From the NCBI RefSeq assembly GCF_022846255.1, contig NZ_AP025682.1: a stretch of 64,000 nt of DNA, one strand, 5' to 3'. Below, piece after piece: positions 973 through 54,474 of this stretch. Made by a program: the position numbers and the translations under genes. The stretch comes from Escherichia coli (GTDB lineage Bacteria; Pseudomonadota; Gammaproteobacteria; Enterobacterales; Enterobacteriaceae). Every line of letters begins with the position of its first letter. Position 1 is the first letter of the stretch. The notes beneath the pieces are model-generated. The model made no database searches, was not told the origin of the DNA, and saw nothing but the letters and a program-made list of their open reading frames with translations.

Positions 973-1049
973 GGCTACGTAGCTCAGTTGGTTAGAGCAC
1001 ATCACTCATAATGATGGGGTCACAGGTTCGAATCCCGTCGTAGCCACCA
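973..1049 (+). tRNA. metT: tRNA-Met (elongator, anticodon CAU)
   Basis: 77-nt sequence GGCTACGTAGCTCAGTTGGTTAGAGCACATCACTCATAATGATGGGGTCACAGGTTCGAATCCCGTCGTAGCCACCA read directly; cloverleaf and CCA end. Confidence 0.95.
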
Positions 1050-1059
1050 TCTTTTTTTT

Positions 1060-1144
1060 GCGGGAGTGGCGAAATTGGTAGACGCACCAGATTTAGGTTC
1101 TGGCGCCGCAAGGTGTGCGAGTTCAAGTCTCGCCTCCCGCACCA
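1060..1144 (+). tRNA. leuW: tRNA-Leu (anticodon UAG), long variable arm
   Basis: 85-nt sequence GCGGGAGTGGCGAAATTGGTAGACGCACCAGATTTAGGTTCTGG...CGCCTCCCGCACCA read directly. Confidence 0.95.
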
Positions 1145-1167
1145 TTCACCAGAAAGCGTTGTACGGA

Positions 1168-1242
1168 TGGGGTATCGCCAAGCGGTAAGGCACCGGTTTT
1201 TGATACCGGCATTCCCTGGTTCGAATCCAGGTACCCCAGCCA
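1168..1242 (+). tRNA. glnU: tRNA-Gln (anticodon UUG)
   Basis: 75-nt TGGGGTATCGCCAAGCGGTAAGGCACCGGTTTTTGATACCGGCATTCCCTGGTTCGAATCCAGGTACCCCAGCCA. Confidence 0.95.
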
Positions 1243-1276
1243 TATTCTTCGAGTAAGCGGTTCACCGCCCGGTTAT

Positions 1277-1351
1277 TGGGGTATCGCCAAGCGGTAAGGC
1301 ACCGGTTTTTGATACCGGCATTCCCTGGTTCGAATCCAGGTACCCCAGCCA
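1277..1351 (+). tRNA. glnW: tRNA-Gln (anticodon UUG), tandem duplicate
   Basis: Identical 75-nt copy of the glnU sequence. Confidence 0.95.
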
Positions 1352-1366
1352 TCGAAGAAACAATCT

Positions 1367-1443
1367 GGCTACGTAGCTCAGTTGGTTAGAGCACATCACT
1401 CATAATGATGGGGTCACAGGTTCGAATCCCGTCGTAGCCACCA
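1367..1443 (+). tRNA. metU: tRNA-Met (elongator, anticodon CAU), second copy
   Basis: Identical 77-nt copy of the metT sequence. Confidence 0.95.
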
Positions 1444-1491
1444 AATTCTGAATGTGTCGAATACGTTCGGCAAATTCAAAAACCAATTTGT

Positions 1492-1566
1492 TGGGGTATC
1501 GCCAAGCGGTAAGGCACCGGATTCTGATTCCGGCATTCCGAGGTTCGAATCCTCGTACCCCAGCCA
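1492..1566 (+). tRNA. glnV: tRNA-Gln (anticodon CUG)
   Basis: 75-nt TGGGGTATCGCCAAGCGGTAAGGCACCGGATTCTGATTCCGGCATTCCGAGGTTCGAATCCTCGTACCCCAGCCA. Confidence 0.95.
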
Positions 1567-1603
1567 ATTTATTCAAGACGCTTACCTTGTAAGTGCACCC
1601 AGT

Positions 1604-1678
1604 TGGGGTATCGCCAAGCGGTAAGGCACCGGATTCTGATTCCGGCATTCCGAGGTTCGAATCCTCGTACCCCAGCCA
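1604..1678 (+). tRNA. glnX: tRNA-Gln (anticodon CUG), tandem duplicate
   Basis: Identical 75-nt copy of the glnV sequence. Confidence 0.95.
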
Positions 1679-6386: not shown

Positions 6387-7265
6387 ATGAGCGACGACAA
6401 TTCACACAGTAGTGACACGATAAGCAACAAGAAGGGATTTTTCTCCCTGTTACTCAGCCAACTTTTCCACGGTGAACCGAAAAACCGTGACGAACTGCTG
6501 GCGCTGATCCGTGATTCCGGGCAGAACGACCTTATCGACGAAGATACGCGCGATATGCTCGAAGGGGTGATGGACATCGCAGACCAACGCGTCCGCGACA
6601 TCATGATCCCCCGCTCCCAGATGATTACCCTGAAACGCAACCAGACACTGGACGAATGCCTTGATGTCATCATCGAGTCCGCCCACTCACGTTTCCCGGT
6701 GATTAGCGAAGACAAAGATCACATTGAAGGGATTCTGATGGCGAAAGACTTGCTGCCGTTTATGCGCAGCGATGCTGAAGCCTTCAGCATGGACAAAGTG
6801 TTACGTCAGGCGGTTGTCGTTCCTGAAAGTAAGCGCGTAGACCGGATGCTGAAAGAGTTTCGCTCTCAGCGTTACCACATGGCGATCGTCATTGACGAAT
6901 TCGGTGGGGTTTCCGGTCTGGTGACCATTGAAGACATCCTGGAACTGATTGTTGGTGAGATTGAAGACGAGTATGACGAAGAAGATGATATCGACTTCCG
7001 TCAGTTGAGTCGTCATACCTGGACCGTGCGCGCACTGGCTTCCATTGAAGACTTCAACGAAGCGTTCGGTACCCACTTTAGCGATGAAGAGGTTGACACT
7101 ATCGGTGGTCTGGTGATGCAGGCATTTGGGCATCTTCCGGCGCGTGGCGAAACCATCGACATCGACGGTTACCAGTTCAAAGTGGCGATGGCCGACAGTC
7201 GGCGTATTATTCAGGTTCATGTCAAAATCCCGGATGACTCACCCCAGCCGAAGCTGGATGAATAA
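6387..7265 (+). CDS. corC: Mg2+/Co2+ efflux protein (CBS-pair plus CorC_HlyC domain)
   Basis: 292-aa translation [38 protein letters not shown]... recognised as CorC/YbeX. Confidence 0.95.
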
Positions 7266-7289: not shown

Positions 7290-8831
7290 ATGGCTTTTGC
7301 CTCATTAATTGAACGCCAGCGCATTCGCCTGCTGCTGGCGTTATTATTCGGTGCCTGCGGAACGCTGGCCTTCTCTCCTTACGATGTCTGGCCTGCGGCG
7401 ATTATTTCGCTGATGGGGCTTCAGGCGCTGACCTTTAACCGCCGTCCACTCCAGTCTGCCGCTATTGGCTTTTGCTGGGGATTTGGTCTCTTTGGCAGCG
7501 GTATTAACTGGGTCTATGTCAGCATCGCGACCTTTGGCGGAATGCCTGGCCCGGTTAACATCTTCCTGGTGGTACTGCTGGCGGCGTATTTGTCGCTGTA
7601 TACCGGACTGTTTGCTGGCGTGCTGTCGCGTCTGTGGCCGAAAACCACCTGGCTGCGCGTGGCGATTGCCGCTCCTGCTCTCTGGCAAGTGACCGAGTTT
7701 CTGCGCGGTTGGGTGCTGACTGGCTTCCCGTGGTTACAGTTCGGCTATAGCCAGATTGATGGCCCGTTAAAAGGGCTGGCACCGCTAATGGGCGTGGAAG
7801 CCATTAACTTCCTGCTTATGATGGTTAGCGGCCTGCTGGCACTGGCGTTAGTCAAACGCAACTGGCGTCCGCTGGTGGTGGCCGTCGTGCTGTTTGCCCT
7901 ACCCTTCCCGCTGCGTTACATCCAGTGGTTTACCCCGCAACCGGAGAAAACCATTCAGGTTTCGATGGTTCAGGGCGATATTCCGCAATCGCTGAAATGG
8001 GACGAAGGCCAGCTTCTTAATACGCTGAAGATTTACTACAACGCAACGGCACCGCTGATGGGCAAATCATCGTTGATTATCTGGCCGGAGTCGGCGATAA
8101 CCGATCTGGAAATTAATCAGCAACCGTTCCTCAAAGCTCTGGACGGTGAGTTGCGCGATAAAGGTAGCTCGCTGGTCACCGGGATTGTCGACGCGCGTCT
8201 CAATAAGCAGAACCGCTACGATACCTACAACACCATCATCACACTGGGTAAAGGTGCACCGTACAGCTACGAATCAGCCGATCGCTATAACAAAAACCAT
8301 CTGGTGCCGTTTGGCGAGTTTGTCCCGCTCGAGTCGATTCTGCGTCCGTTAGCACCGTTCTTTGATCTGCCGATGTCGTCGTTCAGCCGTGGGCCATATA
8401 TCCAGCCGCCGCTGTCGGTAAATGGTATTGAGCTTACTGCGGCTATTTGCTACGAGATCATTCTCGGCGAGCAAGTGCGCGATAACTTCCGCCCGGATAC
8501 CGACTATCTGCTGACTATCTCCAACGATGCGTGGTTTGGTAAGTCTATTGGTCCATGGCAGCACTTCCAGATGGCGCGAATGCGTGCGTTGGAGCTGGCG
8601 CGCCCATTGCTGCGTAGCACCAACAACGGTATTACGGCGGTGATTGGCCCGCAGGGTGAGATTCAGGCAATGATCCCGCAGTTCACCCGCGAAGTGTTGA
8701 CCACTAACGTGACGCCGACCACCGGACTCACACCGTACGCACGTACCGGCAACTGGCCGCTGTGGGTACTGACGGCATTGTTTGGTTTTGCCGCCGTGTT
8801 GATGAGTCTGCGTCAACGACGTAAACGTTGA
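7290..8831 (+). CDS. lnt: apolipoprotein N-acyltransferase
   Basis: 513-aa translation, N-terminal multi-TM region plus C-terminal CN-hydrolase domain; recognised as Lnt. Confidence 0.95.
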
Positions 8832-8935
8832 TGTGAATGATGCGCTGGCCTGCATAATTGCATCAATTTTGCAGGCCAGATAAACCGTTAACACCGCATC
8901 CGGTATCAACAAAACGTACTTTCTCATTGAGCTGT

Positions 8936-8963
8936 GGGGCGTGATTATCATGCCCCTTTTTTC
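8936..8963 (+). terminator. candidate terminator after lnt
   Basis: ggggc-gtgattatcat-gcccc followed by tttttt; the minus-strand 625-aa gene stop codon (8964-8966) abuts the T-run. Confidence 0.45.
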
Positions 8964-10841
8964 TTACGGTTCAGGGATACAAGCCACATTGCCATATTGG
9001 GGATGCCGAATAATTGCCTGCGGATCAAGCGAGCGCGTCCTGTCCAGTTGGATTAACCCGTTCTTCGCCATAACAAATATCTTTCTACCATCCGCTGAAA
9101 AACGAAGGTGATTAACGTAGCTGGCAGGATAAACGCCAATAATCTGCCCGGCATTAATATTGAGCAGGATGACATAACCTTGCAGGCCATATGACACCAA
9201 CGCTAAATATTGACCGTCCGGGCTAATACCCTCAACGGAATAAACGCTCCTGCTACACCATTGCGTCATAATGCTGGCTTGTTGATCCCCTACGCTTATA
9301 CGTGAAATCCCCTGGCTATCGGCAAAAATAATCTCGCCATTTTTTGGTCGGAATCCCATCGCAGAAACGACACCACGCGCATCACCTGTGGGAAAGTCTT
9401 CTTTCTGATGCGTGATGGTATTGATGCGTACAATGTCGCCTCTGACCATACCGGGTATCAACAATGTTTTTTCATCCGGGGAAAGTGCCATAACCCAGGC
9501 GCCTGGTTTACCGCTCGTCCCCGTCCCGTCGTATTTCTCCAGCGGGATATCCGCCACATGCTGATAAGTCACCAGATCAATGGCTGACACACTATTACTG
9601 GTGCGATTCATCACCCAGGCTTTTGTGCCATCACGCGAGAGGATAAGACTGTCAGGATGTGCACCGGTGGTAATCGACTGAATAATCTCCCCCGTCGCCA
9701 CGTTAATGACCGATAACGCATTCGCTTCAAATGAAGTTGCATAAAGCAACGTTTCATCCGGGCTTAACGCCAGCGATCTGACGCCCTGATCTTTACAGCC
9801 ACCACAATGTTTGAGTGACTTTTCTTTCGCTATGGGCGCTGTAAAGGTATGCAGGATTTTCTTTTGTCCGAGGTCGAAAACAACAATACTGTTGGTGTTT
9901 TCAATTGCGGCATATAACGTATTACCATCCCGATTGATCGCCATATCATGGATATCGGCAATCTCAGCGAGTAAATCACCACTGGCCTGCTCACGACTTA
10001 CCGGAGCGGATAATGTTTCCGTGAGGGCGTTGCGCTCCTCCACTAACTGCTGCTTTTTTTGTCGTCGCTCTTGTTCAATCTCCTGCGGATAAAACTCTTC
10101 ACGCAGGCTTTGCCTGACCTGTAAAACTGATTCATCAATCTGCTGCTGCACAAGCCAGATAGCCCCGGTCAGAAGAAGAGTGACCGCAACAATAATTCCG
10201 CCTTCCGTAACGAATCGGTTTTGCCCAACTAAACGCGCGCTCAGCCAACCCAACGCACCACCCGCAATCAGGCCGCCAATGTGGCAAGCGTTATCTATTC
10301 CTGTTTGCCGGGCACCGTACAACAGTGTCAGCGCCACCATACCCAACAGAGGAAATACTCGCCGCTGGTTTTTATGGTGTGTGCCCGCACCTAAAGCAAG
10401 CTGTGTTGCTATCGCAGCGCCAGCTATTCCCATAATCGCCCCGGATGCCCCAACGCTGATGACTATCTGCTCACTTTCGCGTAACGCATAACAGGCACTG
10501 ATTAGCCCACCAAAGACGCCAGAGAATAGCCAGACAATCAGGAGTCGCCATTTCCCCAGTATCCGCTCCGCCACTGCCCCCACCACCAGAAGTGCAAACA
10601 TATTCATCAGCAAATGGGGAAAACTACTGTGCAGAAAGACACTGCTCAATAAGCGCCAGGATTCATCCGACAACGTGAGAGAAGCAACGTTAGCGCCGAG
10701 ATGGATGAGTGCGGATTGATCGACTTCTTCGTAACTCATCCATTGTGCGAGGTAACAAAATATCCCAACACAGAACGCAAAAAGGATCAGGGTTATTGCG
10801 GGTAATTGAACATTTAACGGCTTAACCGAAGATGCAGACAT
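8964..10841 (-). CDS. rhomboid-family intramembrane serine protease (6+1 TM) fused to a C-terminal seven-bladed YVTN-type beta-propeller
   Basis: 625-aa ORF. Rhomboid motifs read in the translation: L1 WR (WRLLSSVF), TM2 LHSSFPHLLMNMF, catalytic GASG (VGASGAIMG), catalytic His (ACHIGGLIAGG), extra 7th helix GGIIVAVTLLLTGAIWLV, charged linker EQERRQKKQQLVEERNAL, then seven SPDG/SRDG-like blade repeats. Confidence 0.8.
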   Translation of the reverse strand: MSASSVKPLNVQLPAITLILFAFCVGIFCYLAQWMSYEEVDQSALIHLGANVASLTLSDESWRLLSSVFLHSSFPHLLMNMFALLVVGAVAERILGKWRLLIVWLFSGVFGGLISACYALRESEQIVISVGASGAIMGIAGAAIATQLALGAGTHHKNQRRVFPLLGMVALTLLYGARQTGIDNACHIGGLIAGGALGWLSARLVGQNRFVTEGGIIVAVTLLLTGAIWLVQQQIDESVLQVRQSLREEFYPQEIEQERRQKKQQLVEERNALTETLSAPVSREQASGDLLAEIADIHDMAINRDGNTLYAAIENTNSIVVFDLGQKKILHTFTAPIAKEKSLKHCGGCKDQGVRSLALSPDETLLYATSFEANALSVINVATGEIIQSITTGAHPDSLILSRDGTKAWVMNRTSNSVSAIDLVTYQHVADIPLEKYDGTGTSGKPGAWVMALSPDEKTLLIPGMVRGDIVRINTITHQKEDFPTGDARGVVSAMGFRPKNGEIIFADSQGISRISVGDQQASIMTQWCSRSVYSVEGISPDGQYLALVSYGLQGYVILLNINAGQIIGVYPASYVNHLRFSADGRKIFVMAKNGLIQLDRTRSLDPQAIIRHPQYGNVACIPEP

Positions 10842-10998
10842 AAGGTGTTTCTTCCTTGAAAAGACAGGTAAAAAGCATTTTTCCCGTGTGCAGTTATCAT
10901 CCCGGCAAACGTCCCATGCCGAAAAGATAACTCTGTCCGAAATATGACTTTTTCAGCCTAAAATTACAATCGTAATTAATTCACCCCTAAGTATTTTT

Positions 10999-11014
10999 TG
11001 GCATGTAAGTTGCT
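10999..11014 (+). promoter_or_regulatory. candidate sigma54 (-24/-12) promoter upstream of gltI
   Basis: TGGCAT-gtaag-TTGCT; GG at 11000-11001 and GC at 11012-11013 with exact 10-nt spacing; about 280 nt upstream of the gltI start. Confidence 0.35.
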
Positions 11015-11295
11015 TTATTTACTGTGTAAGCAATGAAATCAGCCGCAACGCAACCGGGTTGCACCACCACAAATCAGCGGTAGCACCAAAAAGGTGCGGT
11101 TTAAGAATTTTGCTTCGGAATGGTGCGGCGCATCTCGCAAAAACAAACAATAAAACAGCAATATCTTTACATTTAGTCAAACTAAATGTTACCTAACAGG
11201 CACAACACTGCACAATAAAGTTGCAGACGATAACAACACAAACACTCACAACGGGTATCCATGCGTTCTTAACGCAGAAGATAAAGGAGTTGGAT

Positions 11296-12204
11296 ATGCA
11301 ATTACGTAAACCTGCCACAGCAATCCTGGCCCTGGCGCTTTCCGCAGGACTGGCACAGGCAGATGACGCCGCCCCGGCAGCAGGCAGCACGCTGGACAAA
11401 ATCGCCAAAAACGGCGTGATTGTCGTCGGTCACCGTGAATCTTCAGTACCTTTCTCTTATTACGACAATCAGCAAAAAGTGGTGGGCTACTCGCAGGATT
11501 ACTCCAACGCCATTGTTGAAGCAGTGAAAAAGAAACTCAACAAACCAGACTTACAGGTGAAATTGATTCCGATCACCTCACAAAACCGTATTCCACTGCT
11601 GCAAAACGGCACTTTCGATTTTGAATGCGGTTCTACCACCAACAATGCCGAACGCCAAAAACAGGCGGCTTTCTCTGACACTATTTTCGTGGTCGGTACG
11701 CGCCTGTTGACCAAAAAGGGTGGCGATATCAAAGATTTCGCCGATCTGAAAGGCAAAGCCGTAGTCGTCACTTCCGGCACTACCTCTGAAGTTTTGCTCA
11801 ACAAACTGAATGAAGAGCAAAAAATGAATATGCGAATTATCAGCGCCAAAGATCACGGTGACTCTTTCCGTACCCTGGAAAGCGGTCGTGCCGTTGCCTT
11901 TATGATGGATGATGCTCTGCTGGCTGGTGAACGTGCGAAAGCGAAGAAACCAGACAACTGGGAAATCGTCGGCAAGCCGCAGTCTCAGGAAGCCTACGGT
12001 TGCATGTTGCGTAAAGACGATCCGCAGTTCAAAAAGCTGATGGATGACACTATCGCTCAGGTGCAGACCTCCGGTGAAGCGGAAAAATGGTTTGATAAGT
12101 GGTTCAAAAATCCAATTCCGCCGAAAAACCTGAACATGAATTTCGAACTGTCGTACGAAATGAAAGCACTGTTCAAAGAACCGAATGACAAGGCACTGAA
12201 CTAA
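11296..12204 (+). CDS. gltI: glutamate/aspartate ABC transporter periplasmic binding protein
   Basis: ORF 11221..12204; start set at the Met of the signal peptide MQLRKPATAILALALSAGLAQA (ATG 11296, aaggag SD 7 nt upstream). Confidence 0.95.
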   Translation: MQLRKPATAILALALSAGLAQADDAAPAAGSTLDKIAKNGVIVVGHRESSVPFSYYDNQQKVVGYSQDYSNAIVEAVKKKLNKPDLQVKLIPITSQNRIPLLQNGTFDFECGSTTNNAERQKQAAFSDTIFVVGTRLLTKKGGDIKDFADLKGKAVVVTSGTTSEVLLNKLNEEQKMNMRIISAKDHGDSFRTLESGRAVAFMMDDALLAGERAKAKKPDNWEIVGKPQSQEAYGCMLRKDDPQFKKLMDDTIAQVQTSGEAEKWFDKWFKNPIPPKNLNMNFELSYEMKALFKEPNDKALN

Positions 12205-12205
12205 T

Positions 12206-12360
12206 TACAAGAACCAGGGGCGGAAATTCCAGCCCTCTCGATTGTTACGTAGCACGGACAGACTATACGCCTGGTGGTCGTTCCCCATCGGGCCTGAAAA
12301 CCGCAATACGCTGGGTAACAATCTTCGAGGGTAGCAGTTAACGCTGCTACCCTCTTTTTT
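12206..12360 (+). ncRNA. sroC: SroC sRNA (GcvB sponge) from the gltI-gltJ spacer
   Basis: Position between gltI stop and gltJ start; ends in hairpin gagggtagcag-ttaacg-ctgctaccctc plus tttttt (12327-12360); identity assigned from locus knowledge, not alignment. Confidence 0.5.
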
Positions 12361-12373
12361 CTGGAGTAGATTT

Positions 12374-15649: not shown

Positions 15650-17320
15650 ATGGATAATGCAGAACTCGCCATTGGTATCGATCTCGGTACTACCAATAGT
15701 TTAATTGCCGTCTGGAAAGACGGTGCCGCGCAATTAATTCCAAATAAGTTCGGTGAATATTTAACACCATCCATAATTAGCATGGATGAAAATAATCATA
15801 TTTTAGTCGGAAAACCCGCTGTATCACGGCGCACTTCGCATCCGGATAAAACGGCAGCGTTATTTAAACGTGCAATGGGCAGTAATACCAACTGGCGGTT
15901 AGGCAGCGACACATTTAACGCGCCAGAACTGTCCTCTTTGGTATTACGCTCATTAAAAGAAGATGCCGAAGAATTTCTGCAACGTCCGATTAAAGATGTG
16001 GTGATCTCCGTTCCGGCTTATTTCAGCGATGAACAACGCAAGCATACCCGTTTAGCAGCGGAGTTAGCCGGGTTAAATGCGGTACGCTTAATTAATGAAC
16101 CCACAGCAGCTGCGATGGCATATGGCCTGCATACGCAACAAAATACCCGCTCGCTGGTTTTTGATCTCGGTGGCGGCACGTTTGACGTCACGGTGCTCGA
16201 ATACGCCACGCCGGTGATTGAAGTTCACGCCTCCGCTGGCGACAACTTTCTTGGCGGCGAAGATTTTACTCATATGCTGGTGGATGAAGTTTTAAAACGC
16301 GCCGCAGTGGCTAAAAACATGCTCAACGAAAGTGAGCTGGCAGCCCTGTACACCAGCGTGGAAGCGGCAAAATGCAGCAATCAATTACCGCTGCAAATTA
16401 GCTGGCAGTATCAGGAAGAAACGCGTGAGTGCGAATTTTACGAGAACGAACTGGAAGATTTGTGGTTGCCGCTGCTCAATCGCTTGCGAGTGCCGATTGA
16501 ACAGGCGTTGCGCGATGCACGTCTGAAGCCAAGTCAAATCGACAGTCTGGTGCTGGTTGGCGGCGCATCACAAATGCCGCTGGTGCAGCGAATCGCCGTG
16601 CGTCTGTTTGGCAAATTACCGTATCAAAGTTACGACCCGAGTACTATTGTCGCGCTGGGCGCAGCGATCCAGGCCGCCTGCCGCTTACGCAGCGAAGACA
16701 TTGAAGAAGTGATCCTCACCGATATTTGCCCCTACTCCTTAGGTGTTGAAGTTAACCGCCAGGGCGTTTCCGGCATTTTCTCGCCGATTATTGAACGAAA
16801 CACCACTGTACCGGTGTCGCGTGTAGAAACTTACTCGACCATGCACCCGGAACAGGATTCAATTACGGTTAACGTCTATCAGGGAGAAAACCACAAAGTT
16901 AAAAATAACATTCTGGTGGAATCCTTCGATGTGCCGTTGAAGAAAACCGGGGCTTATCAGTCGATTGATATTCGCTTTAGTTATGATATCAACGGGTTGC
17001 TTGAAGTTGACGTGCTTCTGGAAGACGGCAGCGTTAAGTCCAGAGTCATTAATCACAGTCCTGTAACATTGAGCGCGCAGCAGATTGAAGAGAGTCGGAC
17101 GCGGTTATCCGCATTGAAAATTTATCCGCGCGATATGCTCATCAACCGCACCTTTAAGGCCAAACTGGAAGAGTTGTGGGCGCGGGCGCTGGGTGACGAG
17201 CGAGAAGAGATCGGCCGGGTGATCACCGATTTTGATGCGGCGTTGCAGTCAAACGATATGGCCCGCGTCGATGAAGTTCGGCGACGGGCGAGCGATTATT
17301 TGGCTATTGAGCTCCCTTAA
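15650..17320 (+). CDS. hscC: Hsp70-family chaperone HscC (Hsc62)
   Basis: 556 aa; N-terminal IGIDLGTTNSLIAVW actin-like ATPase motif. Confidence 0.95.
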   Translation: MDNAELAIGIDLGTTNSLIAVWKDGAAQLIPNKFGEYLTPSIISMDENNHILVGKPAVSRRTSHPDKTAALFKRAMGSNTNWRLGSDTFNAPELSSLVLRSLKEDAEEFLQRPIKDVVISVPAYFSDEQRKHTRLAAELAGLNAVRLINEPTAAAMAYGLHTQQNTRSLVFDLGGGTFDVTVLEYATPVIEVHASAGDNFLGGEDFTHMLVDEVLKRAAVAKNMLNESELAALYTSVEAAKCSNQLPLQISWQYQEETRECEFYENELEDLWLPLLNRLRVPIEQALRDARLKPSQIDSLVLVGGASQMPLVQRIAVRLFGKLPYQSYDPSTIVALGAAIQAACRLRSEDIEEVILTDICPYSLGVEVNRQGVSGIFSPIIERNTTVPVSRVETYSTMHPEQDSITVNVYQGENHKVKNNILVESFDVPLKKTGAYQSIDIRFSYDINGLLEVDVLLEDGSVKSRVINHSPVTLSAQQIEESRTRLSALKIYPRDMLINRTFKAKLEELWARALGDEREEIGRVITDFDAALQSNDMARVDEVRRRASDYLAIELP

Positions 17321-17326
17321 ACACGG

Positions 17327-17366
17327 CTGCCGGATGCGGCATAAACGCTGCATCCGGCATCGGCGC
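17327..17366. repeat. REP-like palindromic element between convergent hscC and djlC
   Basis: gctgccggatgcggcataaacgctgcatccggcatcggcgc contains the GCCGGATGCGGC REP core as an inverted pair. Confidence 0.5.
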
Positions 17367-17379
17367 AAAAAACACATCC

Positions 17380-18831
17380 TCAGCTAAACAACATCGCGAT
17401 TTTTCCGAGAGCATAACCTATCACCAGCACCGTTAAGCTGATTTTGATAATGCTGGTAATGCTCTGTGGTTTTTCATCCTCATCATTTTTTTCTTCGTGG
17501 TTTTCAGGTGTTGGCTCATCGACATCTTCATCCTCCGGCTCGAGTTTCACTTTCGTCAACAGCATCCGCGTGATAATGGCCTCTAATGGATGAGCATCTC
17601 CACCTTCCAGCCTTGTATTAAGACGGGCCAGCATCTCTTGTTTCGGGAACGCTTCCAGCACAACCTGTTCCGCTACCCGATACAAATCCAGTAACGGTGA
17701 ATCTTGTTCTGTCTCGCTACCGACTCTCGATTTCCACCATGCCCATGCTTTGCGCTTGAAGAATAACGACTCAATAAACGATTGACCTAACGGCGATAAT
17801 TTTCCGCTATGTAAAATTTCCGCCCATAACAGCCGCGTCCGGGCGCTCTCACCAGGAACATATTTCAACGGTTGACCTTGCGCATCTATCATGCTTCGCG
17901 CTTCGATAACCATCACTAATAACGCGAAATAATCCGGGCAATGACGCTTGCTCCACTGCAACAACAAATTATCAGCTTGTGTAGATGGGTAACTCTCCCG
18001 GTATGCGCAGAGATCGGCAAGCAGGCTTTCCCCCTCGCCACAGTACAACCGTTGCGCACACTGGTAATAACGGGCATCTTCGCTTTCTGGATTTTCTGCT
18101 TGCCACTGTTGGGCAACAGGAATAAGTTCCGCCATACCTGTTTTCACCGAGCTGTACCAGCGCAACAGTTTGCGATGTAACTTGACATCATCAGGAATGA
18201 ACCACGGACCTTCCATTGCCATAAACGCAGTGACATAGTCAGGATGGTAACGGCAGCAGCGTTCCAGCGCGAAGTAATACTCAACAGTCTGGTTCTGCAA
18301 CGCGACGGGATATTCCAGAAGGCTAAGGAAATCGAAACAATCACCAGCCTGAATGGCCTCAAGAAAAGCCTCCCTTTCTTCCTCATCCATTCCTTCGCTG
18401 TCATTAAACGAATGCCAGTTCAAACGCTCTGCTAGCAAAGAAGCACAATTTAATGAAAGATATCGCGCTTCTATAGCGACTGCACACAGCGGCCAGCGTA
18501 ATTGATCGACATCCTCCATGTTCCAGGTATTTAATTGCTGAATAAATTTCTGCCAGGCGGAGGGCTGAAAACGATCACTTTCAGAATCCAGTAATGCCCT
18601 GAATGCACGTAGTATTTCATGTTCAGCGGCGGCATCTTTTTCTTCATCATCTGCTTCCTCGACAGGATTTACCGCCAGTCGCAGCGCCTCTTCATAGGCC
18701 TGGCGTAATGCTTTAAACCCCTGCGGATCGGTTTCGGGATGACACAACGGTAAGCGAGCAAGATAAGCCTGGCGGATAATGTCTATTTGCGTCGTGCTTT
18801 CAATTTCGAGGATTTGCCAACATGTTTTCAT
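17380..18831 (-). CDS. djlC: J-domain co-chaperone of HscC, C-terminal membrane anchor
   Basis: 483 aa; N-terminal J-like region CWQILEIE...[20 protein letters not shown] (HPE rather than canonical HPD); C-terminal hydrophobic helix. Confidence 0.9.
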
Positions 18832-19535
18832 AGGTCGCTCACATCCTTAAGCGTTACCGGGCATTCAGGCTGGACAGTTAATGGCTGCCAGGGAAGCGTG
18901 GCATAGAAACGGTCGCTTCCCGCTGCCAGCTCTTCGAACATCCGACTCCCGGCGCTATCGTATTTGTACAGGGTTAGCGCCTCGCGTAGCGAAGCGTTGT
19001 CTTCGCACTGAGAAGATTGCCAGTAGAGACGCCCTAACGAATAGGCGGAAAAATAGTGCATCCAGCTGTGATAGTAATGGTGTGCTCGTATATAGACGCG
19101 CGATTGCAGCCATAAACTCTCGTCTTCCGTCAGCCACTTGTTGAGCACACCAACCCGTGATAAAAACCCCATCCGCACATAATCCCAGGCTTTGATTCCC
19201 CCTTCCCCACAACACATAGCGGTTTGGGCAACGAATTGGGTATAAATCAACCCTCTCTCCGAGCCGCCAGCAATTAATGCTTTCCACTCTTCAGGGGAAG
19301 AGCGATGCCATGTCAGATATAAGCCAGCTAAATCATTAGCATGACCATCATCGGTCATCTGATAAATAGTCTGAATTAAATCATCACGATTATTTATTCC
19401 CCAGGATGATGAGAGATCGAATTCTTTTATCCCGGTATACATTTTTGGCGAGTCATGCGCGGGCTTGCAACCCTGATTAAGTATTTCCATGGGCGTAGAA
19501 AGCGCAAAAAGAAGATATTGTTCTTCCTTATTCAT
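18828..19535 (-). CDS. ybeU: DUF1266-family protein
   Basis: 235 aa; paralogous to ybeR product; 4-nt ATGA overlap with djlC start. Confidence 0.85.
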
Positions 19536-19636
19536 TTGTTAATAATCCCTTATGTGCATTAACTGACTACTTTTTTATTATTGATGAGTATAAACTTGAC
19601 GCTTTCAAAATAAAAAGAAAATCGAAGCATTCACTC

Positions 19637-20191
19637 ATGAATAAAAAATTAATGTATATATTCGCAATATTTATAGTTGCAGCAATAACCTGTATTAGCC
19701 AACCCAAGAAAACGACGTTGCGTGATAAAGCCATGGCGAATTATGCCTTTGATTATTTAAGCTCACCGGGCAGTCTTCCATTCACCACGGCAGCCACGGA
19801 GCTTTCCGCGATTCATGGTCACTCAACGTCGCAATATCGCCTTGGAGAATTTTATCTTCATGGTAGCGACGGTAAACCACTGGATTATACACAGGCGAGA
19901 TACTGGTATGAGCAATCAGCGGAACAGGAAAATCCACGCGCGCAAAGTAAACTGGGGTGGATCTACCTCAAAGGTCTGGGGGTCAAACCCGATACCCGTA
20001 AAGCAATTCTCTGGTATAAGGAAGCAGCTGAACAAGGGTATGCTCATGCTCAATATACTTTAGGTTTGATCTACAGAAACGGCTCAGGTATTAATGTTAA
20101 CCATTATGAATCTCAAAAATGGTTAAAACTGGCCGCCAAACAACATTACAAAAACGCGGAAAGATTACTTGCCGGGCTTCCCGCACATTAA
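19637..20191 (+). CDS. ybeT: Sel1-like repeat protein with N-terminal signal/TM segment
   Basis: 184 aa; Sel1/TPR-like repeats (e.g. [39 protein letters not shown]). Confidence 0.85.
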
Positions 20192-20200
20192 CGTCGACTG

Positions 20201-21628
20201 TCACCCGAACAGATGGAGTATTTTCCCTATCAAACCGGCAAAGATAAAAATGTAGAAAATAATTTTGATGACGCCCAGGCAGCCCGGCCCACCATCGTCA
20301 ACGGGCATCGACTGCGGTTGCGGCTCCGGTTCGACGGTTTGCTTCTCGGTAAAATTTGCCGCCTGAATTAATAATCGACGAATCATTAATGCTTCCAGTG
20401 GACAACGATCTTCTGCATCAAGGCGGCTGACGATCGGCATTAATGATTCTTCTGTCGGTTGGCTGGCCTGAACTAATTGTTTAGCAACTAAATATAATGG
20501 CCATAAGGGATGTTCTGTATCACGCGTGAGTGAGATCCGCGGCTTACGTCCTTTGTGCAAAACCATCTCGACCAGAGAACGCCCCAGCGCAGAGAGTTTT
20601 TCATCACTGAGTATTTCGTATAAATGAAAACGCGTACGAGCGCTGTCACCAGGGACATAAAGTAGCGGTTTTCCCTGATCGTTAACCAGATCACGCGCTT
20701 CAATCATCATCACCACTAACGGGTAATAATCGACCCGATGCTGACGGCACCATTGCAACATTAAAGCATCCGCCTGGGTGGAGGGATACTCGCGCCAGTA
20801 GTCACAAAGTTCTGCCAGCAGGCTTTCGCCTTCTCCACAATAGACGCGTTGCGCGTATTCATAATAACGCGCATCTTCATTATCAGGTTCAGCTTCCTGC
20901 CACGACCGGGCGTAATCCAGAAGTTCGGGGATATCCAGACGGCTTGTGCTATACCAGCGGAGTAAATTTCTGTGCAAATTTGCATCATCGGGGATAATCA
21001 CTGCGCGATGTTGCGCTAAATACAATGTCAGCCATTCTGGATGCGATGACCAAATCCGAGCGAACATTTGGTAAAAATCAATGGTGTCATTTTGTACGGC
21101 AACGGGCAGATGCAGAATGGTCTGGAAGTTAAAAACATTCCCCTTCGCAATGGCATATAAAAAGGATTCCAGTTCTTCTTCGTCTATTTCCCCGACGTTT
21201 TCCTCCTGCAACCACCGCAATCTTTCTGCTAATAACACCACGCACTCGAAGGATAAATGGGCAGTGTTCATGGCTATTGTGCACAGCGACCAGCGTAATT
21301 CATCAATATCTTCCATCGAGCAATAATTTAATTGCTGAATGAATCGCTGCCAGGCAGAGGGCAGAAAACGTTCGCTATCAGAGGCGAGTAACGCACGAAA
21401 GGCGAGCAGAATTTCATGTTCTGCAACTTCATGTTCTTCTGGTTGCCAAACAGATTTAGCAGGCGACTGCGCAATCCGTAGCGCGTCCTCATACGCCTGA
21501 CGAAGTTGTTTAAAACCCTGCGGATCGGTTTCTGGATGAAAGGACGGTAACAGCGCCAGATAAGCGCGGCGGATAATATCGACGTCAGTCGTTTCCTCTA
21601 TTTCGAGAATCTTCCAGCAATTTTTCAT
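20201..21628 (-). CDS. djlB: J-domain protein, paralogue of DjlC
   Basis: 475 aa; N-terminus [39 protein letters not shown] parallels DjlC; C-terminal hydrophobic anchor. Confidence 0.9.
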
Positions 21629-22359
21629 AGGTCGCTCATATCCTTAAGCGTTTCCGGGCATGTGGGGTAGTCAGCCAGTGGTTGCCAGGGTAAGGTCGCG
21701 TAATATGCATCGTCACTGGCAAATAATTGATAAAACATATCATTGCCGGAATCGTCGTATTCTTTACGCGCTAAGAATTCACGTAATAAAGGCAGATCAT
21801 CATCCTCGGGAGACTGCCAATATTGCCGACCAAAGGTATAACCGGCAAAGTATTGCCGCCAGTTACTATAATAACGTAGAGCCCGTAGATGAATGCGCGA
21901 CTGGATCCACAGGCTTTCTTCTTCACTCAACCAGTTATTAAGTACGCCCATTCGGCTTAAAAAACCCATCCGGACATAATCCCAGGCTTTAATTCCTCCC
22001 TCACCACAGCATTCGGCGGTGCTGGCGACAAATTGCGCATAAGCCTGACCTTGCTCATTTAATTCAGCAAGATAGTCACGCCATTCACATGGCGAATAAC
22101 GAAACCAGCAGTGATAAAACCCTGCCAACCGCGCGGCATGACCGTTATCAATCATTCGGTAAATTGTGCGCAGCAGGTCATCACGGTCATCAATTCCCCA
22201 GGAGGAAGAAAGGTCAAAAAAGCGTGTACCTAAATACATTTTGGGGGACGAATGCGAAGGTAAACAGCATTCATTGCGTATTTCCATCGGAGTGGAAAGT
22301 GCAAACAATATTTTTTGCGACTCCATGTCCATATAATTCATCCTTAAATATTCATTCAA
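21625..22359 (-). CDS. ybeR: DUF1266-family protein
   Basis: 244 aa; paralogous to ybeU product; 4-nt overlap with djlB start. Confidence 0.85.
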
Positions 22360-22489
22360 TGAATATTAACCACGTTGCGAGGCTCATTTATTTATACTTT
22401 TCTGACGCAACATAATACGCATAAAATAAGGCTTACGCAAAAATGGAACACATAAAAATATAATATGTTTTATATGCAACCATAAGGAA

Positions 22490-23473
22490 ATGATAATGAT
22501 TTTTACGTCAAGTTGCTGCGATAATTTATCAATAGAAAAGATTGTTAAACGTGCTGAAAAAGGCGATAGCGAGGCTCAATATATTGTTGGGTTTTATTAT
22601 AATCGCGATAGCGCAATTGACTCTCCGGACGACGAAAAAGCCTTCTACTGGCTGAAGCTTGCCGCTGAACAAGGCCATTGTGAAGCACAATATTCCTTAG
22701 GGCGGAAATACTCCGAGGATAAAAGCCGTCATAAAGATAATGAGCAAGCTATCTTTTGGCTGAAAAAAGCTGCCCTACAAGGCCATACTTTCGCTTCCAA
22801 CGCCCTTGGCTGGATACTGGATCGTGGAGAAGACCCCAACTATAAAGAAGCGGTTGCCTGGTATCAGATAGCCGCGGAGAGCGGAATGCCTTATGCGCAA
22901 AATAATCTTGGATGGATGTACAGAAATGGCAACGGAGTCGCACAAGACTATGCGCTGGCATTTTTCTGGTACAAACAAGCTGCATTACAAGGCCATAGTT
23001 ACGCGCAAGACAACCTGGCCGATCTCTATAAAGACGGAGAAGGCGTTGCTCAAAACAAGACACTCGCCGCATTCTGGTATTTGAAAAGCGCACAGCAGGG
23101 TAATCGGCATGCCCAGTTTCAAATTGCATGGGATTATAACGCTGGCGAAGGGGTGGACCAGGACTATAAGCAAGCGATGTACTGGTATCTGAAGGCTGCC
23201 GCTCAGGAAAGCGTCGGCGCTTACGTCAACATCGGTTATATGTATAAACATGGACAAGGCGTTGAGAAAGATTATCAGGCCGCCTTTGAATGGTTTACGA
23301 AAGCCGCTGAATGCGATAATGCCACTGCCTGGTATAACCTTGCCATTATGTATCATTACGGAGAAGGAAGACCTGTCGATCTCCGACAGGCTCTCGATCT
23401 GTATCGTAAAGCTCAGTCATCCGGTACCAGGGATGTCAGTCAAAAAATCCGTGAGATTGAAGATTTACTGTAA
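22490..23473 (+). CDS. ybeQ: Sel1-like repeat protein
   Basis: 327 aa; about 8 tandem Sel1 repeats (AQYxLGxxYxxGxGVxQD pattern). Confidence 0.85.
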   Translation: MIMIFTSSCCDNLSIEKIVKRAEKGDSEAQYIVGFYYNRDSAIDSPDDEKAFYWLKLAAEQGHCEAQYSLGRKYSEDKSRHKDNEQAIFWLKKAALQGHTFASNALGWILDRGEDPNYKEAVAWYQIAAESGMPYAQNNLGWMYRNGNGVAQDYALAFFWYKQAALQGHSYAQDNLADLYKDGEGVAQNKTLAAFWYLKSAQQGNRHAQFQIAWDYNAGEGVDQDYKQAMYWYLKAAAQESVGAYVNIGYMYKHGQGVEKDYQAAFEWFTKAAECDNATAWYNLAIMYHYGEGRPVDLRQALDLYRKAQSSGTRDVSQKIREIEDLL

Positions 23474-54245: not shown

Positions 54246-54474
54246 TCCTCTGATTTACAAAACACGCTAATTCGTCTCCCATAAACCATGACGATTAAGA
54301 TTTATACATAATGCGCTACATTGAGGAATTCCCTGAATGTGACGCAAATCACTTCAAAGAGTGAGCAACAGTCAGTATCATCATGTGAGTTAAACCCTCG
54401 CCGCCTGACGGTGAGGGTTTTCTTTTGGGTATGTTTATCTGCGACACTCGCAGTACCGACGACATGGAGTAAAA

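What the first reader, a model, noticed from the sequence alone, without database searches (positions are those of the whole stretch)
8964..10841. Rhomboid intramembrane protease fused to a periplasmic seven-bladed beta-propeller
The 625-aa minus-strand ORF carries every rhomboid catalytic signature in the correct order: L1-loop WR (WRLLSSVF), TM2 H..H...N (LHSSFPHLLMNMF), TM4 GxSG (VGASGAIMG) and TM6 His (ACHIGGLIAGG). A seventh hydrophobic helix (GGIIVAVTLLLTGAIWLV) follows the catalytic His, giving a 6+1 topology that would put everything C-terminal to it on the periplasmic side. After a charged linker (EQERRQKKQQLVEERNAL) come seven YVTN/lactonase-type blade repeats (NRDGNTLYAA, SPDETLLYAT, SRDGTKAWVM, SPDEKTLLIP, FRPKNGEIIF, SPDGQYLALV, SADGRKIFVM). 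The closest described architecture I know is Bacillus YqgP/GluP (rhomboid plus extracytoplasmic TPR domain); a propeller in that position suggests a rhomboid whose activity or substrate capture is gated by a periplasmic ligand or partner. From memory, K-12 has only GlpG as a rhomboid and has no gene here.
Basis: partly seen in the sequence, partly recalled or inferred. Interest (0 to 1): 0.85.

Follow-up and report, generated by a model that had tools for sequence, protein, structure and literature searches.

The report
E. coli copy of Rhom7 protease
This gene is the E. coli version of Rhom7, a membrane-embedded rhomboid protease already tested in Shigella sonnei; its large tail is a seven-bladed propeller, probably facing the periplasm, whose job is still unknown.

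Summary
It has a seventh TM helix, a helical linker and a seven-bladed YVTN-type beta-propeller (Pfam Rhomboid E=2.8e-28; AlphaFold pLDDT 79; best fold match 1l0q).

It is not new. The protein is the orthologue of Shigella sonnei Rhom7 (SSON_0610), characterised in EMBO J 2020 (PMC7232013). Both are 625 aa, share Ser133/His187 numbering and the lnt|rhom7|gltI locus, and are about 91% identical to the published sequence. That study showed protease activity and candidate substrates (FdnH, HybA, HybO). [quoted passage not shown]

RefSeq annotates the gene in 3,237 of 5,426 complete E. coli genomes, including BL21(DE3). K-12 lacks it.

What this analysis adds:
- The uncharacterised C-terminal domain is a propeller.
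- Two cysteine pairs that are kept or lost together, plus loop charges, support a periplasmic location.
- The fusion extends to Klebsiella, Budvicia, Janthinobacterium and metagenomes.
- Both domains are under purifying selection (dN/dS about 0.2).
- About one in five sampled carrier genomes has a disrupted copy, often at an A7 tract that would remove only the propeller.

The propeller's function remains open. Overall interest is low to moderate.

The parts
8964..10841 (-). rhom7 CDS, 625 aa (exact protein WP_137501676.1). Orthologue of S. sonnei Rhom7/SSON_0610.
   Evidence: ORF list. Exact-sequence look-up. Colinear with the published Rhom7_Ss sequence, 557 of 610 aligned residues identical despite letters lost in machine reading.
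10851..10857 (-). Shine-Dalgarno-like AAGGAAG, 9 nt upstream of the ATG
   Evidence: Read directly from the sequence.
10239..10664 (-). Pfam Rhomboid domain, aa 60-201 (L1 loop to TM6). The whole six-helix core spans about aa 15-203.
   Evidence: Pfam PF01694 at E=2.8e-28. Aligns to GlpG structures. AF2 helices at 15-34, 74-95, 97-122, 131-150, 155-178 and 184-203.
10653..10658 (-). L1-loop Trp62-Arg63 (WR motif)
   Evidence: R63 is kept in 59/59 and W62 in 55/59 family representatives.
10602..10616 (-). TM2 His76-x3-Asn80 (oxyanion-hole region)
   Evidence: H76 in 59/59 and N80 in 58/59 representatives.
10440..10451 (-). TM4 Gly-Ala-Ser133-Gly. The catalytic serine codon is at 10443-10445.
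   Evidence: G131, S133 and G134 are kept in 59/59. S133A abolishes activity in S. sonnei Rhom7 (PMC7232013).
10281..10283 (-). TM6 catalytic His187
   Evidence: Kept in 59/59. H187A abolishes activity in S. sonnei Rhom7.
10143..10217 (-). Seventh transmembrane helix (aa 209-233), which carries the chain from cytoplasm to periplasm
   Evidence: Hydropathy peak of 1.99. AF2 helix 209-233. Poorly conserved in sequence, 0.26. Aligns with the last helix of AarA in Fig EV1.
10026..10133 (-). Two charged linker helices (aa 237-272)
   Evidence: AF2 helices 237-250 and 253-272. Low sequence conservation, 0.29.
10054..10060 (-). A7 homopolymer (CDS nt 782-788, codons 261-263). It is a recurrent frameshift site in other E. 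coli genomes and is intact here.
   Evidence: A 1-nt deletion occurs at or next to the tract in UMNK88, 2022H047, CH4784 and UTME-9. The first three sit on allele backgrounds 66-119 nt apart. PGAP flags them as frameshifted. The resulting stop is at aa 266.
9978..10013 (-). Conserved pre-propeller motif P-x-P-V281...A286-x-G288
   Evidence: V281 is kept in 88%, A286 in 96% and G288 in 98% of 59 representatives. Invariant in alignment A1.
9042..9977 (-). Seven-bladed YVTN-type beta-propeller (aa 289-600)
   Evidence: TIGR02276 YVTN repeat at 58.4 bits against a cutoff of 27.85. 1l0q by sequence at 1.2e-24. AF2 shows about 28 strands with pLDDT mostly 85-95. Foldseek top hit is 1l0q at E=1.7e-17, and the other listed matches I recognise (G-beta, Groucho/TLE1 WD40, hydrazine synthase beta) are seven-bladed propellers.
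9795..9806 (-). Cys346-x2-Cys349 loop between blades 1 and 2. Putative disulfide.
   Evidence: A pair of cysteines is present in this loop in 55 of 59 representatives. Both are absent in two of them. C346 is kept in 89% and C349 in 96%.
9255..9257 (-). Cys529, putative disulfide partner of Cys621
   Evidence: Co-occurrence with C621: both present in 51, both absent in 6, unpaired in 2 of 59.
8979..8981 (-). Cys621 in the C-terminal tail (aa 601-625 = window 8967-9041)
   Evidence: Invariant in A1. Co-occurs with C529.
8826..11055 (.). Presence/absence segment. It is present in about 60% of complete E. coli genomes and is replaced by about 170 bp of unrelated sequence in K-12-type genomes. The left breakpoint lies in the last codons of lnt and the right breakpoint about 240 bp upstream of gltI.
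   Evidence: Alignments of occupied and empty sites. Genome counts.
8936..8956 (+). G+C-rich hairpin followed by a T-run between lnt and the rhom7 stop codon. On this strand it is terminator-like for lnt.
   Evidence: Consensus scan. This is a pattern match only.

Best explanation
The ORF encodes the E. coli orthologue of Rhom7, the second rhomboid intramembrane serine protease of the Escherichia/Shigella lineage.

Shown for the Shigella orthologue, which is about 91-93% identical:
- The six-helix core uses a Ser133-His187 dyad to cut transmembrane helices inside the inner membrane.
- It cuts the TatA model substrate. When over-produced it also cuts the membrane anchors of FdnH, HybA and HybO. 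Full-length FdnH and HybA are cut when orphaned from their respiratory complexes, and cleavage depends on a helix-destabilising proline.

Inferred here:
- Helix 7 takes the chain back across the membrane, so that two linker helices and a seven-bladed YVTN-type beta-propeller sit in the periplasm.
- The propeller is braced by two disulfides (C346-C349 and C529-C621).
- Because the propeller is dispensable for catalysis on a model substrate yet is under purifying selection, the most likely role is a protein-binding platform. It would select, or restrict access of, the folded periplasmic domains of substrates or partner proteins, rather than contribute to chemistry.

The gene is a stand-alone accessory gene between lnt and gltI. 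It is syntenic as far as Klebsiella aerogenes and has been lost from K-12-type E. coli.
For: Identity:
- 625 aa, colinear with the Rhom7_Ss sequence printed in Fig EV1 of PMC7232013 (557 of 610 aligned residues identical despite letters lost in machine reading).
- The catalytic numbering is identical, S133 and H187.
- A S. sonnei copy sits at the same gltLKJI|rhom7|lnt locus.
- RefSeq annotates the gene as a rhomboid family protease.

Core:
- Pfam Rhomboid E=2.8e-28.
- R63, H76, G131, S133, G134, H187, G190 and G194 are kept in 59/59 representatives at 27-57% identity.
- Activity, S133A/H187A loss of function and the substrates are reported in PMC7232013.

Propeller:
- NCBIfam and PDB sequence matches.
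- AF2 model with pLDDT around 90 in the domain.
- Foldseek returns 1l0q first, followed by other propellers known to be seven-bladed.

Periplasmic side:
- Topology by homology with GlpG plus one extra helix.
- Cytoplasmic loops hold K+R 8 and D+E 0. Periplasmic loops hold K+R 3 and D+E 8.
- Most representatives have exactly 4 Cys in the CTD, as two pairs that are kept or lost together.

Selection: dN/dS is 0.25 for the core and 0.20 for the propeller among six alleles, with dS similar to lnt and gltI.

CTD not catalytic: the delta-CTD and delta-TM7 constructs remain active.

Synteny: K. aerogenes and another enterobacterial contig carry it at the same locus. More distant homologues have no conserved neighbour.
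Against: - No experiment places the C-terminal domain in the periplasm. The authors of PMC7232013 only suggest it.
- The disulfides are inferred from co-occurrence of cysteines, not from coordinates, which the tools did not return.
- Inter-domain geometry in the model is uncertain (pTM 0.60).
- Native Rhom7 levels in S. sonnei were too low to give detectable cleavage, and the double rhomboid mutant had no phenotype. The physiological substrates are therefore not established.
- No binding partner of the propeller is known, and no conserved neighbouring gene points to one.
- About one in five sampled carrier genomes has a disrupted copy, which argues that the function is often dispensable.
Confidence: 0.85

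Rival explanations
1. The propeller is mainly an auto-inhibitory gate. It holds the protease in a low-activity state until a periplasmic ligand or partner releases it. Natural propeller-less truncations would then be de-repressed enzymes.
For: In B. subtilis YqgP, deleting the extracytoplasmic TPR domain raised specific activity four- to six-fold on both substrates (PMC7231995). Rhom7 lacking its CTD is still active. Recurrent frameshifts at the A7 tract would leave the core and TM7 and remove the propeller.
Against: No quantitative comparison of full-length and delta-CTD Rhom7 was found in the text. TPR and propeller domains are unrelated folds. No ligand is known. The A7 frameshifts may be ordinary decay, or homopolymer sequencing errors in long-read assemblies.
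Confidence: 0.25
2. The gene is an accessory gene in decay with no current function in most E. coli. The intact ORF in this window is simply a copy that has not yet been hit.
For: It is absent from about 40% of complete genomes. Of 39 evenly sampled carriers, 7 are flagged as frameshifted and 1 is IS1-disrupted. There is no phenotype in S. sonnei, and native expression is too low for detectable cleavage. No sigma-70 consensus promoter was found upstream.
Against: dN/dS is about 0.22 in both domains, with dS equal to that of the neighbouring genes. The catalytic residues and cysteine pairs are invariant or nearly so across 59 divergent representatives. Synteny is conserved to Klebsiella aerogenes at 49% identity. 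Most sampled copies are exactly 1,878 bp.
Confidence: 0.1
3. The propeller is the functional unit, acting as a periplasmic enzyme or nucleic-acid/ligand binder like YncE or the lactonases. The rhomboid part would serve mainly as a membrane anchor.
For: There are weak profile matches to YncE, Lactonase and PQQ-associated propellers. The propeller makes up about half of the protein and is under purifying selection.
Against: The full rhomboid catalytic signature is kept in 59/59 representatives, which a mere anchor would not require. All matches to specific propeller families are far below their curated cutoffs (YncE 32.8 against 400; PQQ_ABC_repeats 52.9 against 287). No metal- or cofactor-binding motif was recognised.
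Confidence: 0.07
4. It is a rhombosortase-type enzyme that processes a dedicated C-terminal sorting signal (GlyGly-CTERM) on partner proteins.
For: NCBIfam rhombosortase TIGR03902 gives a partial match at E=3.6e-11.
Against: The score is 43.3 bits against a curated cutoff of 84. No conserved partner gene is adjacent in any of the contexts examined. Escherichia is not, to my knowledge, a GlyGly-CTERM lineage.
Confidence: 0.02

Closest known systems
Shigella sonnei Rhom7 (SSON_0610, UniProt Q3Z4D6; Liu et al., EMBO J 2020, PMC7232013)
   Same: Same length (625 aa) and colinear over the whole protein at about 91-93% identity. Same Ser133/His187 dyad, same seventh helix and C-terminal domain, and same lnt|rhom7|gltI locus.
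   Different: It is an allelic or orthologous variant from E. coli (exact protein WP_137501676.1). The published work did not identify the fold, topology or role of the C-terminal domain, which here is assigned as a disulfide-braced seven-bladed propeller.
Providencia stuartii AarA
   Same: A 6+1 rhomboid with about 30% identity to Rhom7 according to PMC7232013. It aligns through TM7 (Fig EV1). Its substrate TatA is also cut by Rhom7.
   Different: AarA is 281 aa and ends shortly after TM7. It has no linker helices and no propeller.
Bacillus subtilis YqgP/GluP
   Same: A rhomboid core plus a seventh helix that places a repeat-type protein-interaction domain outside the cytoplasm. The extracytoplasmic domain is not needed for catalysis. 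It has a membrane-protein quality-control role (PMC7231995). Many of the next-best sequence relatives of the Rhom7 core are TPR-bearing GluP-type proteins.
   Different: YqgP has a cytosolic N-terminal metal-sensing domain, which Rhom7 lacks (Rhom7's TM1 starts at about residue 15). Its outer domain is three TPR motifs (all-helical), not a beta-propeller. The Pfam scan of the window protein found no TPR match.
E. coli GlpG
   Same: Same catalytic fold and motifs. The Shigella work reports overlapping substrates (HybA, HybO).
   Different: GlpG has six TM helices, an N-terminal cytoplasmic domain and no periplasmic domain. The window protein scores 37.9 bits against the GlpG equivalog cutoff of 250.
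YVTN-repeat propellers (Methanosarcina S-layer protein 1l0q; E. coli YncE)
   Same: Seven-bladed fold. It is the best sequence and structure match for residues about 290-600.
   Different: Those are soluble or surface proteins, not fused to a protease. Identity is only about 21%. The specific-family scores are far below their cutoffs.

Membership tests
Rhomboid intramembrane serine proteases (Pfam PF01694 / MEROPS S54) | Significant match to the Rhomboid domain profile | tested here: met
   PF01694 at E=2.8e-28, 99.4 bits, residues 60-201.
Rhomboid intramembrane serine proteases (Pfam PF01694 / MEROPS S54) | Catalytic Ser in GxSG on TM4 and catalytic His on TM6, in that order | tested here: met
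   GASG with S133, and H187. Both are kept in 59/59 family representatives.
Rhomboid intramembrane serine proteases (Pfam PF01694 / MEROPS S54) | L1-loop WR and TM2 HxxxN motifs | tested here: met
   W62-R63 and H76/N80. R63 and H76 are kept in 59/59, N80 in 58/59 and W62 in 55/59.
Rhomboid intramembrane serine proteases (Pfam PF01694 / MEROPS S54) | Six-helix membrane core | tested here: met
   AF2 helices at 15-34, 74-95, 97-122, 131-150, 155-178 and 184-203. Sequence alignment to the H. influenzae and E. coli GlpG structures.
Rhomboid intramembrane serine proteases (Pfam PF01694 / MEROPS S54) | Intramembrane proteolytic activity | not testable with these tools
   Shown for the S. sonnei orthologue, including S133A and H187A controls (PMC7232013). 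Not measured for this allele.
Rhom7 orthologue group (S. sonnei SSON_0610) | Full-length colinearity and high identity with the published Rhom7 sequence | tested here: met
   625 aa against 625 aa. 557 of 610 aligned residues are identical to the machine-read Fig EV1 sequence. S. sonnei database proteins are 92-93% identical.
Rhom7 orthologue group (S. sonnei SSON_0610) | Same chromosomal locus | tested here: met
   The window has lnt | rhom7(-) | gltI. A S. sonnei contig has gltLKJI | rhom7 | lnt-corC-ybeY. The same holds in other E. coli genomes.
Rhom7 orthologue group (S. sonnei SSON_0610) | Seventh TM helix plus a large C-terminal domain | tested here: met
   Helix 209-233 followed by residues 237-625.
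YVTN-family seven-bladed beta-propellers (TIGR02276 repeat) | Repeat profile above the curated cutoff | tested here: met
   58.4 bits against a cutoff of 27.85, E=5.1e-16.
YVTN-family seven-bladed beta-propellers (TIGR02276 repeat) | Seven four-stranded blades closing into a ring | tested here: met
   About 28 strands grouped as 7 x 4 in the AF2 model. Foldseek top hit is 1l0q, and the other listed matches I recognise (G-beta, Groucho/TLE1 WD40, hydrazine synthase beta) are seven-bladed propellers. Ring closure by the N-terminal strand 289-292 is inferred from the strand count, not from coordinates.
GlpG (TIGR04239 / NF008155 equivalogs) | Score above the equivalog cutoff; N-terminal cytoplasmic domain | tested here: not met
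   37.9 bits against 250, and 32.9 against 335. TM1 begins at about residue 15, so there is no N-terminal domain.
Rhombosortase (TIGR03902) | Score above the equivalog cutoff | tested here: not met
   43.3 bits against a cutoff of 84.
YqgP/GluP-type rhomboids | Extracytoplasmic TPR domain and cytosolic N-terminal domain | tested here: not met
   No TPR family appears among the Pfam matches for the window protein, although TPR families are listed for its GluP-type relatives. There is no N-terminal extension.
YncE (NF052280) and PQQ-associated propeller (TIGR03866) | Score above the family cutoff | tested here: not met
   32.8 bits against 400, and 52.9 against 287.3. The resemblance is at the fold level only.

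The most novel reading that the evidence does not exclude
The disulfide-braced periplasmic propeller may be a receptor. It would recognise the folded periplasmic domains of orphan respiratory-complex subunits, or a periplasmic ligand or partner, and so decide what the rhomboid core is allowed to cut. Slippage at the A7 tract in the linker would then be a recurrent natural switch that produces propeller-less, unrestrained Rhom7. That would make this a tractable bacterial model for how extramembrane domains confer substrate choice on rhomboids.
Probability: 0.15. Interest if true: 0.6.

Novelty: already known. Interest (0 to 1): 0.3.

Why it matters
How rhomboid proteases choose their substrates in bacteria is still poorly understood, and the role of extramembrane domains is an acknowledged gap (PMC7232013 discussion; PMC12615303).

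Assigning the unexplained 390-residue tail of Rhom7 as a periplasmic, disulfide-braced seven-bladed propeller, conserved together with an intact catalytic core across gamma- and betaproteobacteria, gives a concrete handle for testing substrate selection or gating.

There are two practical points:
- K-12 lacks the gene, but BL21(DE3) and about 60% of complete E. coli genomes carry it. The two standard laboratory lineages therefore differ in their intramembrane protease complement.
- Natural alleles truncated just before the propeller exist and could serve as ready-made comparisons.

None of this changes the fact that the gene itself is a known, annotated and experimentally characterised protease.

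Tried and rejected
1. Conserved operon partner. I looked for a partner that might point to the propeller's ligand. Enterobacterial copies are always alone between lnt and gltI. Distant homologues (Budvicia-like, metagenomic) sit in unrelated contexts. No partner was found.
2. Rhombosortase, GlpG, YncE and PQQ-propeller membership. All are sub-threshold in NCBIfam and were rejected.
3. Diversifying selection or foreign origin. I considered whether the 4-6% DNA divergence between E. coli alleles signals either. dS (0.12) matches that of flanking lnt and gltI (0.10) and dN/dS is 0.22, so this is ordinary purifying selection in a locally divergent region.
4. Self-release of the propeller by cleavage of TM7. 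I rejected this on orientation: TM7 runs N-in/C-out, opposite to known rhomboid substrates. This is reasoning from established knowledge and was not tested.
5. Literature on a propeller or YVTN domain on a bacterial rhomboid. Nothing relevant turned up, and the Rhom7 papers do not use the word.
6. Promoter scan. No sigma-70 consensus site was found upstream of rhom7. This is uninformative beyond being consistent with the reported low expression.
7. Disulfide geometry and propeller placement. I could not measure Cys-Cys distances or the position of the propeller relative to the active site, because model coordinates are not exposed by the tools.
8. A mistake of my own. An early script queried the wrong residue numbers for the loop cysteines (341/344). 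The correct residues are C346 and C349.
Full report
**1. The observation**

Window 8964-10841 on the minus strand is an uninterrupted 625-codon ORF. It starts with ATG, ends with TAA, and has an AAGGAAG Shine-Dalgarno sequence 9 nt upstream. It lies convergent with lnt (7290-8831, +) and divergent from gltI (about 11296-12204, +).

- WR 62-63
- H76/N80
- GASG with Ser133
- ACHIGG with His187
- a seventh hydrophobic helix at 214-231
- a charged linker at 256-273
- seven blade-like repeats starting at 303, 360, 402, 454, 497, 540 and 582

The statistics rule out chance. Pfam Rhomboid matches at E=2.8e-28 over residues 60-201. The NCBIfam YVTN repeat scores 58.4 bits against a cutoff of 27.85. 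PDB sequence matches are the YVTN propeller 1l0q at 1.2e-24 and H. influenzae GlpG at 2.8e-9.

**2. What it is**

The exact protein is WP_137501676.1, annotated in E. coli as "rhomboid family intramembrane serine protease". It belongs to a 90%-identity cluster of 8,814 sequences that also includes E. fergusonii and Shigella sequences.

A literature search found that the Shigella sonnei gene SSON_0610 was named Rhom7 and characterised by Liu et al. (EMBO J 2020, PMC7232013). Figure EV1 of that paper prints the Rhom7 sequence. It is 625 aa, starts MSASSVKPLNVQLPAITLIL and ends GNVACIPEP. It aligns end to end with the window ORF, with 557 of 610 aligned residues identical even though the machine-read text has lost letters. 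The catalytic residues are numbered Ser133 and His187 in the paper, exactly as in the window ORF. A S. sonnei contig carries the gene at the same locus, gltLKJI | rhom7 | lnt-corC-ybeY. The window gene is therefore the E. coli orthologue of Rhom7.

**3. What is already known about Rhom7** (all from PMC7232013)

- It cleaves an artificial substrate carrying the P. stuartii TatA transmembrane domain.
- S133A and H187A each abolish this cleavage.
- Constructs lacking the C-terminal domain, or lacking TM7 plus the C-terminal domain, still cleave the substrate.
- When expressed from a plasmid it cleaves the transmembrane domains of FdnH, HybA and HybO. Full-length FdnH and HybA are cut when they are orphaned from their complexes, and cleavage depends on a conserved proline.
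- Native expression is too low to give detectable cleavage.
- The glpG rhom7 double mutant has no phenotype in growth, Biolog, oxidative-stress or type III secretion assays.
[quoted passage not shown] They do not identify the domain, and the word "propeller" does not occur in the paper.

A 2025 review lists Rhom7 among the characterised rhomboids, again without a domain assignment. Searches for rhomboid with beta-propeller or with YVTN found nothing relevant.

**4. Anatomy added here**

An AlphaFold2 model was built from a 17-sequence alignment spanning 25-94% identity. Mean pLDDT is 79, and about 90 through most of the C-terminal domain. The model gives:
- seven TM helices at 15-34, 74-95, 97-122, 131-150, 155-178, 184-203 and 209-233
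- two linker helices at 237-250 and 253-272
- about 28 beta-strands between residues 289 and 600, which group as seven four-stranded blades

Foldseek against the PDB returns the YVTN propeller 1l0q first (E=1.7e-17). It is followed by G-beta, Groucho/TLE1 WD40 and hydrazine synthase beta, which from general knowledge are seven-bladed propellers.

**5. Which side of the membrane**

Three independent lines point to the periplasm.
- By homology with GlpG, the N-terminus and the end of TM6 are cytoplasmic, so one further helix puts the rest of the protein outside. This rests on established knowledge of the fold.
- The loops predicted to be cytoplasmic carry 8 Lys/Arg and no Asp/Glu. The predicted periplasmic loops carry 3 Lys/Arg and 8 Asp/Glu.
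- In an alignment of 59 full-length representatives at 27-57% identity, most C-terminal domains contain exactly four cysteines, arranged as two pairs that are kept or lost together. The loop pair (C346-x2-C349 here) is present as a pair in 55 of 59 and entirely absent in two. C529 and C621 are both present in 51, both absent in 6, and unpaired in only 2.

Paired retention and loss is the signature of disulfides, and hence of an oxidising compartment. This is inference; no experiment has tested it.

**6. Family and distribution**

A search of 1.84 billion cluster representatives found about 50 proteins of 590-850 aa that align over both domains in a single stretch at 27-36% identity. Named members come from Klebsiella aerogenes, Budvicia aquatica and Janthinobacterium; the rest are metagenomic.

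Across the 59 aligned representatives, R63, H76, G131, S133, G134, H187, G190 and G194 are invariant. The fusion is therefore an old, recurrent architecture in which the protease is kept active.

In K. aerogenes (49% identity) and another enterobacterial contig (53%), the gene sits between lnt and gltI, as here. More distant homologues lie in unrelated contexts with no conserved neighbour.

**7. Population picture in E. coli**

The CDS is found in 3,237 of 5,426 complete genomes, and 3,232 of these cover at least 80% of it. It is essentially all-or-none, one copy per genome, and chromosomal. BL21(DE3) has an intact copy. K-12 and many other strains have none.

The occupied and empty sites differ by a replacement. 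About 2.2 kb (window about 8826-11055) is exchanged for about 170 bp of unrelated sequence. The left breakpoint lies in the last codons of lnt, so the Lnt C-terminus differs between forms. The right breakpoint lies about 240 bp upstream of gltI.

Among six intact alleles, dN/dS is 0.22 (core 0.25, propeller 0.20). dS is 0.12, similar to lnt and gltI at 0.10. Both domains are therefore under purifying selection, though weaker than for the neighbours (0.04-0.09).

Against this, 7 of 39 evenly sampled carrier genomes are flagged as frameshifted and one carries an IS1 insertion. Four of the seven frameshifts fall at or next to an A7 tract in the linker (CDS nt 782-788, window 10054-10060). Three of these four are on allele backgrounds 66-119 nt apart, so they arose independently. 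They give a stop at residue 266, which would leave the core and TM7 and remove the propeller. Some of these may be homopolymer errors in long-read assemblies; I could not check the reads.

**8. Mechanism**

Shown in the Shigella orthologue: a Ser133-His187 rhomboid protease in the inner membrane cuts proline-containing single-pass anchors of orphan respiratory-complex subunits when it is over-produced.

Inferred here: TM7 exports a disulfide-braced seven-bladed propeller to the periplasm.

Most likely role of the propeller, with roughly even odds: a protein-binding platform that selects or restricts which periplasmic domains, and so which anchors, reach the active site. The reasons are that it is dispensable for catalysis, is selected, is always fused to an active core, and belongs to a fold that generally acts as an interaction scaffold.

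A purely inhibitory gate is a close rival. It is suggested by the four- to six-fold activation of YqgP on deletion of its TPR domain (PMC7231995). Decay, an "anchor only" role for the rhomboid part, and a rhombosortase role are less likely for the reasons given under the rival explanations.

**9. Comparison and verdict**

The protein is a member of the rhomboid family (all sequence and fold criteria met) and of the Rhom7 orthologue group (identity, numbering, architecture and locus met). It is not GlpG, a rhombosortase or a YqgP/GluP-type protein, since the defining features were tested and not met.

Its implication that this is an undescribed kind of protein is not. What is new here is limited to the fold and probable location of the Rhom7 C-terminal domain, the breadth of the fusion family, and the population data.

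I rate the finding as already known, with interest 0.3. The open question, what the propeller does, is real but is a follow-up to published work rather than a discovery.

Noticed in passing
window 10054-10060 (T7 on + strand = A7 in the CDS, codons 261-263): This homopolymer in the linker is a recurrent frameshift site in other E. coli genomes (UMNK88, 2022H047, CH4784; UTME-9 next to it). The first three are on clearly different allele backgrounds. The truncation at aa 266 would keep the rhomboid core and TM7 and drop the propeller. It could be real slippage or a long-read homopolymer error.
   Followed up: partly
window 8810-8831 (3' end of lnt) and 8832-8963: The left breakpoint of the rhom7 presence/absence polymorphism lies inside the last codons of lnt, so the Lnt C-terminus varies. 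It is ...QRRKR in the window, SCU-172 and N63, ...RARKR or ...RARKH in other rhom7 carriers, and one codon shorter in K-12-type genomes. The spacer holds REP-like palindromic sequence and a terminator-like hairpin at 8936-8956.
   Followed up: partly
window 7290-8831 (lnt), 11296-12204 (gltI), 6387-7265 (corC): Synonymous divergence among six E. coli strains is about 0.10 for lnt and gltI, which flank the indel, but only 0.034 for corC one gene further away. This suggests old, recombining haplotypes centred on the rhom7 locus.
   Followed up: no
L016 (NC_012892.2, E. coli BL21(DE3)) 301-2178: The standard expression host BL21(DE3) carries an intact rhom7 (WP_001276742.1), whereas K-12 strains have none. 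The two common laboratory lineages therefore differ in their rhomboid complement.
   Followed up: partly
hit H52, NZ_CP106756.1 1609743-1612396: An IS1A insertion splits rhom7 in strain B-JRPT-4119. The annotation then shows a separate 'beta-propeller fold lactonase family protein' and a 'rhomboid family intramembrane serine protease'.
   Followed up: no
P0038/P0039 (Klebsiella aerogenes; L003 6001-7917): The K. aerogenes orthologues have lost both cysteines of the blade 1-2 loop pair together with a six-residue deletion, while keeping the C529/C621 equivalents. This fits the loop pair being a disulfide that can be dispensed with as a unit.
   Followed up: partly
window 9978-10013 (aa 277-288): A short motif just before the first propeller strand, P-x-P-V...A-x-G, is among the most conserved features outside the catalytic core (V281 88%, A286 96%, G288 98% of 59 representatives). 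Its role is unknown; it may help close the propeller ring.
   Followed up: no
window 12200-12362 (+): A full-length match to the sRNA SroC (Rfam RF00369, 172.6 bits) lies between gltI and gltJ, as expected for this operon.
   Followed up: no
window 15650-23473: A block of ORFs sits between rihA and the leuS region: an Hsp70-type chaperone (HscC-like, 556 aa), four ORFs without NCBIfam matches and a Sel1/TPR-repeat protein. GC falls to 0.43-0.47. Strain SCU-172 lacks the block; there rihA is followed directly by ybeL and leuS. From memory it resembles the K-12 hscC-ybeQ region.
   Followed up: partly
window 973-1675 (+); 40895-41343 (-); 54321-54429 (+); 58234-58327 (-): Ordinary chromosomal RNA features: a cluster of seven tRNA genes, a cspA-type thermoregulator 5' UTR, the rnk leader and an STnc70 sRNA match (Rfam gathering-score hits).
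   Followed up: no
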